The notes: generated from the sequence alone by a model not told the origin. Positions 1,026 to 52,310 are shown, counted from the stretch's first letter. The stretch is 64,000 nucleotides of DNA from Octopus vulgaris (GCA_951406725.2 OX597814.1:112158001-112222000); one strand, 5' to 3'. A program made the numbers and translations.

Positions 1026-1874
1026 TATATATATATATGTGTGTGCGTGTGTGTGTGTGTATGTATATATATATATATATATATATAACAAAATTAATAT
1101 CTTCGCAAATTAATTTTTCTCGTGAATTATTTACCCCTGTATCGAGATTAATTCCACACTGATGGCTGCAATAATTTCGGCACAAAACAAATCAGTTGCG
1201 GCGCAGACTTCAAAACGATAGCTTGGAAGTCTCTATCATGGTAACTCGAGCTGAGGAAGCTAGGGCTATTTTTGCCAGTGCAGAAACCGGTCGAGGTGAA
1301 TCCACTTACTTAAATGTAGGTTGGAAGATTGTCTTAATCTGATTTGCCTTCGGTTGATTTCTGTAGTTATCATCAGTGTATTTTAGCGATTTAAATAAAA
1401 GTTTTGAGTGTTATTTCTCGCAGGTAGACATGCTTAGTATGTCCTTTGGTTAATTTTAATCCTTCAGTTATATAACGTAAATGCTTGAGTATAATCCGCA
1501 TTTTTTTCCCAAAATTTAAAGGTCAAAATCCCTAGTGGGTACTATATACGAGGTTAAAAATGAAAATTATTTTCTAAGCAATGTTCGAGTGTCTCTTTGC
1601 TGTCCGGCAATGTTTATTCAGACGTATTTTGTGATGTCGGGCGTGAAAATACCTTAAGCTAAGCCTGTAAGCAATGAAGTCATAAAAGAATAATCCGTAA
1701 CTTGCAGTTAGCAATATTTATTAAACGTTATTGCTTGTTATTTCTTTATTTTCTGCAAACAAAATGCACAAAAAAGCTACACGTTTGCATTATGTTATAT
1801 ATACAATAATGATAAAGGACGTTATATATATATATATATATATATATATATATATATATATATATATATATATA

Positions 1875-2130
1875 TCCTCGAGTATAATCCGCCCTTGAGT
1901 ATAATACGCGGGGGATTTTTAGGGGGCTGTACCTCTGAAAAACCTAAACCTTGTGTATAATACGCACCCCTTCTCTAACTTGAGTCAAGGACGTTATATA
2001 GACCTCCTTGACTCTAGTTAGAGAAGGGGTGCGTATTATACACAAGGTTTAGGTTTTTTTCAGCGGTACAGCCCCCTAAAATTCCCCCGCGTATTATACT
2101 CAAGGGCGGATTATACTCGAGGAAATACAG
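1875..2130. mobile_element. Fold-back MITE with pogo/Tc1-mariner-like termini
   Basis: Inverted arms of about 105 bp (tcctcgagtataatccgccc... / ...gggcggattatactcgagga) with a further hairpin at the centre. (TA)n on both sides. Related sequence at about 1485-1830. Confidence 0.75.
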
Positions 2131-2919
2131 ATATATATATATATATATATATATATATATATATATATATATATATATATATATGTGTGTGTGTGTGTGT
2201 GTGTGTGTGTGTGTGTGTGTGTGTGTATACATATATATACACGGGCGCATTATAGTGTGTATATATGTGTGTGTATATGTGTATATATATATACATACAT
2301 ACATATATTTATATACACATACACGAATACACACACACACATACATACATATATACATGTTCTTCTATCAACATATATATATATGTTCTCCCCACCTACG
2401 TTTCGCAGCCAATCTCGTTAGCTTGAATCCTAATATCTCGTCGGTGCCGGTTGTCCACAGTCTCGACATTTTAGTTGCCTTATAATCTCCTGCAAGTGCA
2501 ACAGCCGCAAAGCTACAACCTTTTATTATTCTATCAATATGTTTGACTGCAAAAAGCGTCTACACAAAACTTCGTCTTCTCTGTTAATATGTCTAATCTG
2601 TTAATAAATGTTTTTAATAAATATGTCGGCGCCATTTTAATCGAAACAATGCTGTTGACTTAATACACATTTCGTAACATCAGCTGCGTCGCTAAATTAT
2701 TTATTAACAACATTCTTCTTGAATAAAATTTTCTTTACATAAAAGAACCAAAAAGCTGATAGAATATGTTCTAAAAGCTGAGTATTTCACTCGGTTTCAA
2801 AGTGTTTTGATTTCTTGAAAAACGCTAATAAAAGGGAAAAGAATTTCAAGAATATATAAAATTTCTGATGAAAAGAAAAAAAAAAGAAAGAAAATGACTG
2901 CTGCAATATTATACAGTTT

Positions 2920-3435
2920 TATTTACTCGTTTCAGTCTTTTGACTGCGGCTATGCGGAGCACCGCCTTCAAGGGTTTTAGTAACTCCAGCACTTCATTTT
3001 GAGCCTAGTACTTAGTCTATCTGTCTCTTTTGTCGAAGCACTAAGTTACAGTGGATGTAAACAGACCAACACCGGTTGACAAAGATGATGGGGGCAAACA
3101 CAGACACAATGACACGCATACACGCATACATACATACATACATACATACATCTGTCTATATATTCTTTTCTTTTATTCATTTCTTTTATTTGTTTCAATC
3201 ATTTGATTGCGCCTATGCTGGAGCACCGCCTTTAGACGAACAAATGTACTTCAGAACTTATCCTCTGTAAGCCCAGTACTTATTCTATCGGTCTTTTTTG
3301 CCGAACCGCTATTTCACGGAGACGTAAACACACCAGCATCGGTTGTCAAGCGATACCGGGGAGTGGGGACAAACAGACACACACACACACACACACACAC
3401 ACACACACACACACACACACACACATATACGACGG
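2920..3435 (-). mobile_element. Two SINE family A 3' halves
   Basis: Reverse complement of the family A tail (ggtgctccagcat...gcagtcaaatgactgaaac) occurs twice. Confidence 0.8.
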
Positions 3436-4151
3436 GCTATATATATAGTATAAAAAGCTTGCAAGAATCACTTGCTGTACTGCTCTAGGGAAACATTTAT
3501 AGAATCCATTTGCTTCTTGCAAGATATTGCGTGAACACCCTTAATGACAACTAATCAACGAAGCTCATTAATTCTCTCAAGTTCAATCCTTAGTTATATC
3601 GAAAACACGCAAGCTTTATTCATAAAATATAAAATCATGCTACTAACCCTGCTTCCGGGAAAATTATTAGCCTTGAGCCAAAATTTGGAACCGTCTTTAT
3701 ATATTACTACTATTATCTTAATACATCACGTTGAAGTCGAATTTCGGTACAACGCCAGTAACTATGAGGGGAGGAGCAAATCAATTACGTCGACCCCAAT
3801 ATTCAGCTGGTATTTATTTCATCGATTCCGAAAGGATGAAAGGCAAAGTCGACCTCGGTAATATTTGAACTCAGAACAGGAAAACGGACGAAATGCCGTC
3901 AAGTATTTTGTCCGACACGGTTGTGATTCTGCTAGCACGTCACCTGAAGCGGCACAGATTGTTTGATTTGTTCGACTAAATCCTTCAAGGCAATGCCTTA
4001 GCGTGGCTGCTATTCAATGATTAAAACAAACCAAACTGTAAGAGATGGCGACTTCTTTTGAAACAATTGTCTTGCGCAAAAGATTATCGTTCAAGAATTA
4101 AAGGAGAATTTCGATGAGCTTAATGAAAAGAAGGAAAATAATAACCGAAGC

Positions 4152-49545: not shown

Positions 49546-51613
49546 TAGTAATAATAACGAAACACCCGTGTTTCTAGAGGTGAATTATTCAAACCCCAAA
49601 GAATTCCTCTCAACTTGGCGATGATGTTCCCCCACTACTTCTACTCGTCATCAGAGATGCACATATCGTCAGCCACCAAGGGTATATATAGTAAAGTCTT
49701 TTCTGTTCTGTTATTTTATTCTACTTATTTATTTTCGATTTTGTATGTTTGAAATTTTGGAAAATAATAGTTTTTCGAAACCGCAATTACTGTTTTTGTT
49801 TACGTATAATTATTTTTTTAAAAGTGATTTGGCTGTTATTTCTAGCATGTGGGGAGACCTTGGCTTAACTGCATGTACTGGCAGAAACTCACCTACGCAT
49901 GCATAAATGAGCGAACGAGTCTAAAAACATCCAGAATATTGGTATGTATGTGTGCGGGGTAGGAGGGGTGTCAATTGGGTCTTTTGAAAATTTGAAATTT
50001 GGAAAAACACTGTTTTGAGAATCATAATGTCCGTATTTTTCTACGTGGAACCCAAAAATAATTTTCGTAAAAAATCGGAATCTCTATTAACAAAAACGTC
50101 GGAACCTGTAAAAAAAAGTTTTAAAAACGGGATGGGGGTGATTATTGCATACCTCTGCTGAAAACACAACCGAGAGACTTTGCCTACTTTTGCACTTTAA
50201 ATTAGGGGATTTTCAAGGAGTAGATTTATTCTAGTAGGGTTTTACCTGCATTCGCACTTTAACCTGGGGGATTTTTTACTAGGGGTGGTTTTGTCCTAGT
50301 AGGGTTTGTTCAGATCTCAAACTTCCCGGCCGCAACTTAAACCAGCTTTTTTTTTCTCTGTAGCGTCGAGTCGACCAATACTCTGTGGGAAAAATTTAAT
50401 AGATGGGAACCTGTACAGCACGAAGCATGGGTCCATATGTGCATAGATATAGGGGCTTACATTCATAATTAATACATCATTTACAATTAACACTACAGCG
50501 ACTAGCAACACTTACTATTTAACTATTAAGTAATCTGTTTATAATTACACTTAATGACCTCCTTCATTAATCGATCGATTTCGTAATTATAGAATGAATT
50601 AGCTAAATTAGATCTAATTCCATAATTAATCATCTAATTAGTTCATAAAGGAAGTAGCAGACATCTGACAAACGAAGAGATTAACTAATTAATGAGAGAA
50701 TAAATAATTTAATTGTTTAGATAAGTTCAAGAATGTTTAAGAATTCTTTGTGTTTATTCGTAGCCGTTCATAAGAATTGTCATTTCTTCGAAGAACTTTC
50801 CCAAAATGCCAGGCATAATTTCTCCTCGGGACCTACAGACTAAGCTTCATTTACGAATTATAGCCTAGATGCCTTAAAAATATAAAAAAACTCGAGGGAA
50901 ATATGCCTCAACCTAAGTGTCATGATTTCAATCCATCCACTATTAGTCACAGCCACGAGTTATCTCGTCAGTCTATGATGTATAGAAGTCAACAAGTGGA
51001 ATAACGTAGCGACGATAAATATGTGAAGCGTCTTTACAGCAAAGGAGATCGTTCATTCGCCGTAGGGAAACATGTTTGGTCTTGTTAACACTTTTACTTA
51101 TTTTAATTTTTTTTTCTACACTGCGAGTCATTAGTTTAAACGACATGGAGAGAGATTAAGCCACTTAAATGCATTGAGAGTTTGCTTAAAACGTTAACCA
51201 ATCACGGATTATGCTTATGACAAGATTCGAGATCAATGCTGGAAGCTAACCAAACACTTCAGCCTCTCAACAGAGTCCGACATAGACGTATCGAGAGGGA
51301 ATTTTCTTTATAAAACAACATGAAGCAACGCGGAAAAAGAGAGTAGAAGGAAATAAAGAAACATAAAAGGTAGCTAAATAATGCAACGGATTATTTATTA
51401 TATAAATGTTCTGAGGTGAAACGGGTTGAGTACATACGGTATTTTAACCACGTGCTACGTCTTTTCCCCATTTGCATTATAAATCCACACACACACACAC
51501 ACACACACACACACACACACACATATATATATATGATTTATATAAATAAGGATAAGATCGTTATTTAAAATACCGATCAGTTCAAGTGGCCAGCATGGGA
51601 ATAAAAAAAAAAA

Positions 51614-51890
51614 TATAATTAAGGGTATCTAAAAGATAAATGCGTCTAAAAGATACTACCATGCTAGAGATAGCAGTCAAAACTTGACTCTGAAACCACA
51701 TCATGTATTTATACAGCACCAGGAGAAAAGACAAATAGAGAAATAAACTAGCAAATGTAATTATTTGATTGTTTATTTCTCAATTTGTCTTTTATTCTGG
51801 TGCTGTATAAAATACATGATGTGGTTTTAGAGTCAAGTTTTGACTGCTATCTCTAACATGGTGGTATCTTTCAGATACTCTTAATTATAA
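51614..51890. repeat. Imperfect inverted repeat, arms about 125 bp, spacer about 22 nt
   Basis: aagatactaccatgctagagatagcagtcaaaacttgactc... versus ...gagtcaagttttgactgctatctctaacatggtggtatctt. Confidence 0.88.
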
Positions 51891-52036
51891 TTTTATATAT
51901 ATATATATATATATGTGTGTGTGTGTGTGTGTGTGTGTATGCATGTATATATATATATATATATATATATATATATATATATAGTAGTAACAGAAAAGAG
52001 GAATTTCGATTATCCCCACGTGGTGAGTTGTAATGT

Positions 52037-52310
52037 ATATAAGAAATTAAAAAAGGAAAATACATACTTACATAGTTTTAATATAATTTTTAATATATCG
52101 ACCGGTTTCGCTATCGCTATTCATGATATTATGTTTTATTTATTTGAATATATATTTTTTCTTAAGAAGAAATTTGGTCCAGGTTGTGTGTGATGATTCA
52201 AATAAATAGAACATAATATCATGAATAGCGATAACGAAACCGGTCGATATATTAAAAATTATAATAAAACTATGTAAGGTTGCGTATTTTCCTTTTTTTA
52301 TTTCTTATAT
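52037..52310. repeat. Imperfect inverted repeat, arms about 113 bp, containing CGAAACCGGTCG
   Basis: atatatcgaccggtttcgctatcgctattcatgatattatg versus cataatatcatgaatagcgataacgaaaccggtcgatatat. Confidence 0.88.

What the first reader, a model, noticed from the sequence alone, without database searches (positions are those of the whole stretch)
1251..52310. Dispersed hammerhead-like motifs on several unrelated short repeats: a possible ribozyme-bearing non-autonomous retroelement system
Seen: the same core grammar recurs with different stem II sequences. 1251-1292 (+, CTGAGGA...GAAAC-CG-GTC); 14057-14092 (+); 14623-14659 (+, tcc-TTGATGA-GGTCAtaTGACT-GCAAT..TTC-gga); 19305-19338 (+); 29955-30031 (+); 44756-44783 (-, GAGC-tat-GCTC-GAAAC-GTC); 45218-45254 (-, CTGAAGA-TAAC...GTTG-GAAAC-GTC); about 52236-52245 (+, GAAACCGGTC only). 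Many lie near (TA)n-type tracts, and a PLE endonuclease relic is in the window. Inference: several PLE-derived, ribozyme-carrying mini-element families colonising TA microsatellites. The PLE-hammerhead link is established. Whether these families are described in this genome is unknown to me.
Basis: partly seen in the sequence, partly recalled or inferred. Interest (0 to 1): 0.72.

Follow-up and report, generated by a model that had tools for sequence, protein, structure and literature searches.

The report
Penelope transposon stubs carrying hammerhead ribozymes
Six of the eight motifs are worn end-pieces of six unrelated families of Penelope-type jumping DNA that carry a hammerhead-shaped RNA predicted to cut itself, a known arrangement; three families trace to protein-coding parents, three likely borrow those proteins, and one has an unusual A-U swap in its core.

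Summary
Mostly real, mostly known. Six of eight sites belong to six unrelated high-copy families whose consensus is a type I hammerhead. The other two (14623, 45218) have no family and are probably chance. None of the eight listed copies is a complete hammerhead; the only two complete ones in the window are unlisted mirror arms, 19261-19299(-) and 52100-52124(-). 'Non-autonomous' fails for three families. 19305 and 29955 are 5'-truncated ends of Hydra-clade Penelope-like elements (PLEs), one with an intact 722-aa ORF; 52236 is the end of a Neptune-type PLE. 1251 and 14057 are ORF-less tandem units of about 470 and 355 bp (retrozyme-like), and 44756 has no ORF in 20 loci. Inverted arms, one-sided tails and (TA)n targets are published PLE traits. 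Extras: the 52236 family has an A3-U8 core (51 of 52 copies; 488 exact matches); this scan noted A3-U8 and the one-tail rule before on other DNA of this genome. Four chimeric insertions join ORF-less units to coding PLEs. Cleavage and expression are untested.

The parts
1088..1471 (+). Family F1 copy: part of an ORF-less tandem unit of about 470 bp (retrozyme-like). Hammerhead core 1251-1257, GAAA 1283, triplet GTC 1290-1292; stem I mutated in this copy (family CGTG/CACG)
   Evidence: 827 first-look candidates, about 85% identity; alignment; direct repeats mostly 461-488 bp in 30 of 60 loci, some overlapping; extent
14004..14257 (+). Family F2 copy: part of an ORF-less tandem unit of about 355 bp. 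Core 14057-14063, palindromic stem III, triplet GTA 14094-14096; stem I damaged here (family CTTAA/TTAAG)
   Evidence: 1049 candidates; alignment; 6 of 38 double changes at each of two stem I pairs; periods mostly 326-363 in 33 of 60 loci
14623..14659 (+). Hammerhead-like string with U3-G8 and GCAA; no family, probably chance
   Evidence: only itself in DNA search, pattern search and 1.9 Mb of held loci
19238..19436 (.). Family F4 stub between (TA)n tracts: 129-bp head-to-head palindrome (19238-19366) plus a tail of about 68 nt on the right arm; two 5'-truncated ends of a young Hydra-clade PLE
   Evidence: top 30 copies 93-100% identical to the query; copy-specific centres; intact parent L318; hairpin of -106.5 kcal/mol
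19255..19305 (-). The listed + arm (19305-19344) lacks stem I
   Evidence: family table
20636..20827 (+). Broken Hydra-type GIY-YIG endonuclease relic (in-frame stop) of a further PLE family
   Evidence: tblastn with the L318 ORF, 37% identity, E 2.4e-6; translation
29786..30261 (+). Family F5 copy: 3' end of a Hydra-clade PLE. Core 29955-29961, long stem II, GAAA mutated to AAAA in this copy, triplet GTC 30029-30031
   Evidence: 2539 candidates; endonuclease directly upstream in 4 of 4 long copies translated, EN matches in 13 of 20 loci; extent
44676..44846 (-). Family F6 copy: element of about 190 bp with a shared 5' end; family core CCGACGA (C4), 3-bp stem I; core mutated in this copy; no ORF found
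   Evidence: 1851 candidates; 32 exact 31-nt matches against 0 control
45220..45252 (-). Core plus 4-bp stem II but only 1 bp of stem I; no family; chance or an old relic
   Evidence: pattern 2 matches against 1 control
51983..52314 (.). Family F8 stub: head-to-head pair of 5'-truncated ends of a Neptune-type PLE; left arm (-) 52196-51983 with tail, right arm (+) 52196-52314 without
   Evidence: 1498 candidates; RT-ZnF-GIY-YIG ORF directly upstream; extent
52095..52129 (-). The listed + arm has a broken stem II pair
   Evidence: 51 of 52 family copies carry this core; 488 exact matches against 0 control

Best explanation
Six of the eight motifs are decayed type I hammerhead sequences at the 3' ends of six unrelated Penelope-like repeat families: three lie directly behind endonuclease-coding ORFs, three have no ORF in the copies examined and are likely copied in trans, and self-cleavage is predicted but untested. 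Mechanism: a PLE protein (GIY-YIG endonuclease plus RT) nicks a (TA)n tract and primes cDNA on the element RNA (established for another PLE, Frangieh 2024; inferred here). Priming at two sites downstream of the hammerhead gives a tailed and a tail-less end (ends shown; cause inferred). Both target strands are likely extended, synthesis usually stops within about 10 nt of the hammerhead's 5' edge, and the two cDNAs join head to head by microhomology (junctions shown; steps inferred). The template is mostly uncut RNA (shown for F4: 0 of 30 tailed arms start at the cut site). F1 and F2 are short ORF-less units copied for more than one unit length, as expected of circular or tandem retrozyme RNA (structure shown; RNA form inferred).
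For: Six families, each with a hammerhead consensus; intact core plus stem I in 17/43, 17/38, 80/128, 14/26, 8/23 and 37/52 copies or arms, chosen as best hits. F4 parent L318 is pLTR - 722-aa ORF - 3'UTR - pLTR with RWR, DKT, CxCX5C, YIG and CxxC-E-N-CxH, matching the Hydra definition. A contig from a second organism label bridges pLTR and ORF, and contigs end in (AT)n at both end sites. F8 sequence is at 24 of 25 distinct loci picked by endonuclease similarity, after dropping 4 duplicates and 1 other-family locus from 30. F5 has an upstream endonuclease. Inverted pairs have one tailed and one tail-less arm in 53 of 54 (F4) and 9 of 11 (F8). A subfamily variant is on both arms in 6 pairs and never on one arm only among 43 pairs. 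Same-family head-to-head joins without microsatellite: 74. Inverted copies, one-sided tails and (TA)n targeting are published (PMC8557442).
Against: No cleavage or expression data; the public runs are contigs only. Stem covariation is sparse (clear only in F2; 2-3 double changes in F5 and F8; about none in F1, F4, F6) and relatedness was not controlled. F1 closes stem II with A-A and F4 with U-U, F6 has C4 and a 3-bp stem I, and F8 has a 2-bp stem II, so activity may be low or lost. No window motif folds better than its shuffles, and a read-through of the F4 palindrome is predicted to be locked in a 63-bp hairpin. The pair samples for F4 and F8 were partly chosen with tailed queries. Absence of an ORF in 20-60 loci is weak, because F4 stubs outweigh its ORF start about 1000-fold in contig depth (depth is no copy number).
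Confidence: 0.85

Rival explanations
1. All families are non-autonomous mini-elements that spread as fixed short units.
For: Short stubs dominate; about 22 of 30 tail-anchored F4 insertions have their junction at or inside the hammerhead's 5' edge; F1, F2 and F6 show no in-line ORF.
Against: F4, F5 and F8 run upstream into endonuclease ORFs; junctions differ from copy to copy, as expected if each stub is made anew.
Confidence: 0.1
2. All six families, including F1, F2 and F6, are only truncated ends of autonomous PLEs whose coding copies were not sampled.
For: F4's parent was found only by a dedicated upstream search; only 40 candidates are scored per search.
Against: In F1 and F2 the sequence upstream of the hammerhead is the same as that downstream of the tail, with a fixed period, leaving no room for an ORF.
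Confidence: 0.2
3. The inverted arm is a fold-back copy of a single first-strand cDNA rather than a second primed cDNA.
For: Variants are mirrored in both arms, including one private change (L096); the second arm is nearly always the shorter at its 3' end.
Against: The tail-less arm sometimes reaches further 5' than the tailed arm (L095, L118), and two insertions have arms from different families (L033, L356), which fold-back cannot make. Later central deletions and two adjacent insertions are not excluded.
Confidence: 0.3
4. The motifs are chance matches in a microsatellite-rich genome.
For: Fits 14623 and probably 45218.
Against: Enrichment over controls; family consensuses restore the stems that the window copies lost.
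Confidence: 0.02

Closest known systems
Minimal type I hammerheads in pLTRs of metazoan PLEs (Cervera and De la Pena 2014, PMC4209133; parts 1-2 of 4 read)
   Same: Type I topology, short or palindromic stem III, unpaired base after A9 (F6), many unrelated families per genome, mostly single truncated copies, opposite-strand pairs 100-700 bp apart
   Different: They report C3-G8 and U3-A8 cores; F8 has A3-U8. F1 and F4 lack the G10.1-C11.1 pair
Hydra clade PLEs, e.g. Hydra-1_Obim (Craig et al. 2021, PMC8557442; passages, section 11 and supplement hits read)
   Same: F4 parent and F5: C-terminal GIY-YIG without CCHH, CxxC and CxH around E and N, canonical hammerhead, (TA)n insertion; F4 also RWR, DKT and CxCX5C; inverted 5' copy and one-sided tail
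   Different: The F4 ORF and hammerhead differ by eye from the printed Hydra-1_Obim, so a separate family; unit about 4.8 kb with a 2.4-kb microsatellite-rich 3'UTR against 'generally <3 kb'; tail about 68 nt against 30-40
Neptune-type PLEs (definition from passages of Craig et al. 2021)
   Same: F8 parent: RT, then a CX4CX2C linker, then C-terminal GIY-YIG with CCHH-like residues, then 3' pLTR in (TA)n
   Different: A3-U8 core; no tree was built; no copy with the ORF start was found
Animal non-LTR retrozymes (Cervera and de la Pena 2020, PMC7229834, part 2 of 6; Li, Clavereau and Pollet 2026 preprint, part 1 of 5 and passages)
   Same: F1 and F2: ORF-less AT-rich units of 355-470 bp with a type I hammerhead in direct tandem
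   Different: Mostly 1-1.5 units and old (80-88% identity); carry PLE-style inverted arms and TA ends; circular RNA not shown
Poseidon element PAc in vitro (Frangieh et al. 2024, PMC11167929; parts 1-2 of 4 read)
   Same: Two RT start sites downstream of the hammerhead that define the tail, both target strands extended, uncut RNA as main template
   Different: Different clade; here inferred from genomic footprints only

Membership tests
Type I hammerhead ribozyme | Core N3-U4-G5-A6-N7-N8-A9 with paired 3-8, GAAA, NUH | tested here: met
   Six family consensuses; F6 has C4 and F8 A3-U8. Not met by 14623 (U3-G8, GCAA)
Type I hammerhead ribozyme | Stem I flanking the core, stems II and III | tested here: met
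   Stem I of 3-6 bp in family consensuses; broken in all listed window copies, complete on two mirror arms; absent at 45218
Type I hammerhead ribozyme | Stem covariation | tested here: inconclusive
   F2 6 of 38 at two pairs; F5 2 of 26; F8 3 of 52; no control for relatedness
Type I hammerhead ribozyme | Self-cleavage at NUH | not testable with these tools
   Only contigs were available
Hydra-clade PLE (F4, F5) | Single ORF, RT plus C-terminal GIY-YIG without CCHH, CxxC-E-N-CxH | tested here: met
   L318 ORF; F5 endonuclease. Pfam does not recognise the L318 ORF; the call rests on motifs
Hydra-clade PLE (F4, F5) | RWK-like, DKT and CxCX5C motifs | tested here: met
   Read in the L318 ORF against section 11; not seen for F5, whose full ORF was not recovered
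Hydra-clade PLE (F4, F5) | Placement in the Hydra clade on an RT tree | not tested
   No reference set was available as files
Neptune-type PLE (F8) | RT, CX2-5CxxC linker, C-terminal GIY-YIG | tested here: met
   RVT_1 E 1e-6 and GIY-YIG above cut-off on L223; linker in translations
EN+ PLE insertion signature | 5' truncation, inverted 5' copy, tail at one end, (TA)n target | tested here: met
   inverted copies also seen in F1, F2, F5 and F6
Non-LTR retrozyme (F1, F2) | Non-coding 150-450 bp unit with hammerhead in direct tandem | tested here: met
   Periods about 355 (within range) and 470 (slightly above); no in-line ORF in 60 loci each
Non-LTR retrozyme (F1, F2) | Two consecutive units with complete hammerheads | tested here: inconclusive
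   A few loci have two same-strand hammerhead matches (e.g. L343, L352, L396); their completeness was not scored
Non-LTR retrozyme (F1, F2) | Circular or unit-length RNA | not testable with these tools
Non-autonomous element (F4, F5, F8) | No coding parent | tested here: not met

The most novel reading that the evidence does not exclude
One PLE insertion complex can hold two different RNAs and prime both target strands, so that an ORF-less retrozyme (F2) and a coding Neptune or Hydra RNA are written into one site as the two arms. The chimeras L033 and L356 (head to head) and L026 and L219 (direct) would then be direct genomic evidence that names the enzyme donors of animal retrozymes. In addition, the A3-U8 core of F8 would be an active natural hammerhead variant present in many hundreds of copies, whose A3-U4-G5 might double as the start codon.
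Probability: 0.3. Interest if true: 0.55.

Novelty: new member of a known kind. Interest (0 to 1): 0.3.

Why it matters
Mainly annotation. It sorts short repeats of this genome into PLE ends and retrozyme-like units, and it shows that standard C3-G8/GTC searches and Rfam miss many of them (a rough extrapolation from 27 hits in 570 kb gives on the order of 100,000 stem-complete motifs). The young intact Hydra element (L318) offers an in vitro system for a clade not yet studied biochemically in the papers I read, where the two-start-site, two-strand model and trans-mobilisation of retrozyme RNA can be tested. An active A3-U8 ribozyme would widen the natural core consensus.

Tried and rejected
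Rfam: only microsatellite-driven miRNA matches among the 150 rows shown at E<=10 and nothing at gathering. Pfam on 105 chosen window ORFs found LINE RT pieces but no GIY-YIG; Neptune queries missed the window relic, and the Hydra query found it. The idea that the F4 palindrome is one fixed master was rejected after an unbiased tail query. The idea of a cap-derived G at the F4 centre was rejected, because the G belongs to the opposite arm. No full-length F8 with ORF start was found in the four loci whose upstream DNA was printed, so the AUG-in-core and a nearby GTAAGT donor are untested. A candidate long F2 tandem (L363) is a segmental duplication. An upstream query for F6 found only itself; the F6 pattern matches were not read in context, so an F6 parent remains open. 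RNA: no RNA holder listed; runs are guessed RNA contigs and show no ends or splice joints, so no evidence on expression either way. Literature for A3-U8: 'hammerhead + A3U8' 0 papers, 'A3-U8' 0, 'C3A + G8U' 1 irrelevant; 'hammerhead + octopus' gave only Craig 2021 as relevant among 25 of 51 listed. Lunse et al. (PLE hammerhead variants) and Przybilski and Hammann 2007 (3-8 exchanges) are known to me only as titles in reference lists and could already cover A3-U8. Earlier-finding look-ups by sequence for three sites were blank.
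Full report
Setting. The window is G000:C1:112158001-112222000 of a 2.8-Gb animal genome in 227 contigs, rich in microsatellites. The host is likely an octopus; this is an inference from size and repeat content, in line with earlier scan notes, and was not tested.

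Observation. The eight strings are present. Genome-wide, a narrow pattern gives 2798 matches against 594 for its reversed control. In 57 ten-kb stretches picked at round coordinates, a stem-aware descriptor finds 19 C3-G8, 8 U3-A8 and 1 unpaired 3-8 motif; 20 shuffles average 0.40 paired and 0.70 unpaired. Rfam reports nothing at gathering score. In the window the same descriptor finds two complete motifs, both on minus-strand mirror arms that were not listed: 19299-19261 and 52124-52100 (shuffled mean 0.06).

Families. DNA searches give six unrelated families (first-look candidates, not copy numbers): F1 at 1251 (827), F2 at 14057 (1049), F4 at 19305 (280), F5 at 29955 (2539), F6 at 44756 (1851) and F8 at 52236 (1498). 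Sites 14623 and 45218 find only themselves; their patterns give 1 match against 0 control and 2 against 1. Each family consensus is a type I hammerhead, and the window copies have lost a stem or core base. Intact core plus stem I is seen in 17 of 43, 17 of 38, 80 of 128, 14 of 26, 8 of 23 and 37 of 52 best-hit copies or arms. Double changes in stem I are clear only in F2 (6 of 38 at two pairs), few in F5 and F8, and near absent elsewhere. Against activity: odd closing pairs of stem II in F1 and F4, C4 in F6 (a U4C variant is reported to lower activity in vitro; PMC3088659, passages), and no fold better than shuffles except the F4 palindrome, which would lock both motifs.

Coding parents. F8 lies about 300 bp behind an RT - zinc-finger linker - GIY-YIG ORF. 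It is present at 24 of 25 distinct loci picked by that endonuclease (30 fetched, 4 duplicates and 1 other family dropped), and Pfam finds RVT_1 and GIY-YIG on the longest ORF: Neptune type by motif. F5 lies behind an endonuclease with CxxC and CxH around E and N in 4 of 4 long copies translated, with matches in 13 of 20 loci. For F4, a search with upstream sequence led to L318: pLTR, a 722-aa open frame, a 2.4-kb microsatellite-rich UTR and a second pLTR. Its motifs match the Hydra definition (PMC8557442 section 11); it differs by eye from Hydra-1_Obim in that paper's supplement. In a large run with another organism label, a contig bridges pLTR and ORF, contigs end in (AT)n at both end sites, and depth over the hammerhead is about 1000 times that over the ORF start (depth is no copy number). 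The L318 protein also finds the endonuclease relic at 20636-20827, which belongs to a further family.

ORF-less families. In F1 and F2 the DNA upstream of the hammerhead repeats what follows the tail. Direct repeats occur in 30 of 60 and 33 of 60 loci with periods near 470 and 355 (half of the loci were found with the upstream segment, and some overlap). No in-line upstream ORF was found in these loci. This fits non-LTR retrozymes (PMC7229834, part 2 of 6; preprint 10.64898/2026.07.22.740005, part 1 of 5 and passages; its supplements are closed and could list related families). F6 copies begin within one short stretch in the 20 loci read and show no ORF; given the F4 ratio this does not prove non-autonomy.

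Mechanism. A (TA)4 tract follows the motif in 67-100% of copies per family against 35% background, and in all 30 F4 loci (where the query ended at the tract). Head-to-head joins without microsatellite are same-family in 74 cases and cross-family in 1. Inverted pairs have one tailed and one tail-less arm in 53 of 54 (F4) and 9 of 11 (F8); the samples were partly found with tailed queries, which forces one tail but does not forbid two. Centres differ between copies, and about 22 of 30 tail-anchored F4 insertions join at or within the 5' edge of the hammerhead; none of the 30 tailed arms starts at the cut site. A subfamily variant is on both arms in 6 pairs and never on one only among 43, with 21 unmirrored differences elsewhere. 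So both arms usually come from the same RNA or source locus. Inverted copies, one-sided tails and (TA)n bias are published (PMC8557442, passages). Two internal RT start sites, extension of both strands and use of uncut RNA were shown in vitro for a Poseidon element (PMC11167929, parts 1-2 of 4). I therefore read the stubs as short products of two-site, two-strand priming (inferred); fold-back of one cDNA is the main rival. Four chimeras bear on helpers: F2 head to head with F8 (L033); F2 head to head with a Hydra RT piece that ends in a Neptune-type pLTR (L356); F1 joined directly to a Neptune RT piece (L026); and a sister of F6 joined to the F8 ORF (L219). These are few, point to no single donor, and could come from adjacent insertions plus deletion.

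The A3-U8 core. F8 has ATGAATA in 51 of 52 copies between a 5-bp stem I and a 2-bp stem II, and 488 exact 31-nt matches against 0 control. Sister Neptune-type ends carry U3-A8 or C3-G8 cores, read by eye. C3-G8 to U3-A8 is in print (PMC4209133, parts 1-2 of 4; PMC3088659). A3-U8 was not found by three searches, but two likely papers could not be read. This scan has noted A3-U8 in this genome and in another, and the one-tail rule and Hydra stubs in this genome; these are unchecked notes, not support. A repeat annotation of an octopus lists 31 recently active PLE families; the two of three parts read do not discuss hammerheads, and its library was not seen (PMC13282606), so whether these families are named there is open.

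Verdict. A real sample of ordinary PLE debris plus two or three retrozyme-like families; new members of known kinds. Interest 0.3; the chimeras and the A3-U8 core are the parts worth a bench test.

Noticed in passing
L318 (G000:C4:75252500-75259500), 1094-6008: Intact young Hydra-clade PLE in partial tandem, 722-aa frame, with a 2.4-kb degenerate microsatellite 3'UTR shared between copies; Pfam does not recognise it
   Followed up: partly
L237 (G000:C16:20834000-20841000), 1406-5087: Neptune-type family with many 781-aa frames and a separate 359-aa upstream frame; its ends carry a U3-A8-type motif and CCAAT/TGACGT-rich repeats in the 3'UTR
   Followed up: no
window 39399-39458: 60-bp piece 98% identical to the 3' end of the L237 Neptune-type family
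   Followed up: no
window 52124-52066 (-): A3-U4-G5 of the F8 core is an ATG that opens an 18-codon frame running into a GTAAGT donor-like site in family copies; no copy with the downstream ORF start was found
   Followed up: partly
L204 and L198, 3' of the endonuclease: Neptune-type ends with a U3-A8 core and GCAA in place of GAAA in both copies read
   Followed up: no
window 1876-2122: Element of about 250 bp with long terminal inverted repeats between two (TA)n tracts, MITE-like; a related piece begins near 1485
   Followed up: no
window 15872-17236 (-), 17358-17640 (-), 32010-32411 (+): 3' parts of non-LTR retrotransposon ORFs with zf-RVT, next to (ATT)n tracts; family name not tested
   Followed up: no
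window 25024-27606 (+): Broken LINE with endonuclease and RT matches
   Followed up: no
G000:C1:20002278-20004542 and C1:92886705-92887859: Hammerhead arrays with a period of about 359 bp, with an inverted part, of a family other than F2
   Followed up: no
L245, L251, L272, L282, L377, L379, L382: An abundant sister of F6 with mixed U4 and C4 cores and a GUU triplet, among the most frequent hits of the 570-kb sample
   Followed up: partly
window 19436-20142: (AT)353 tract directly behind the F4 tail
   Followed up: no
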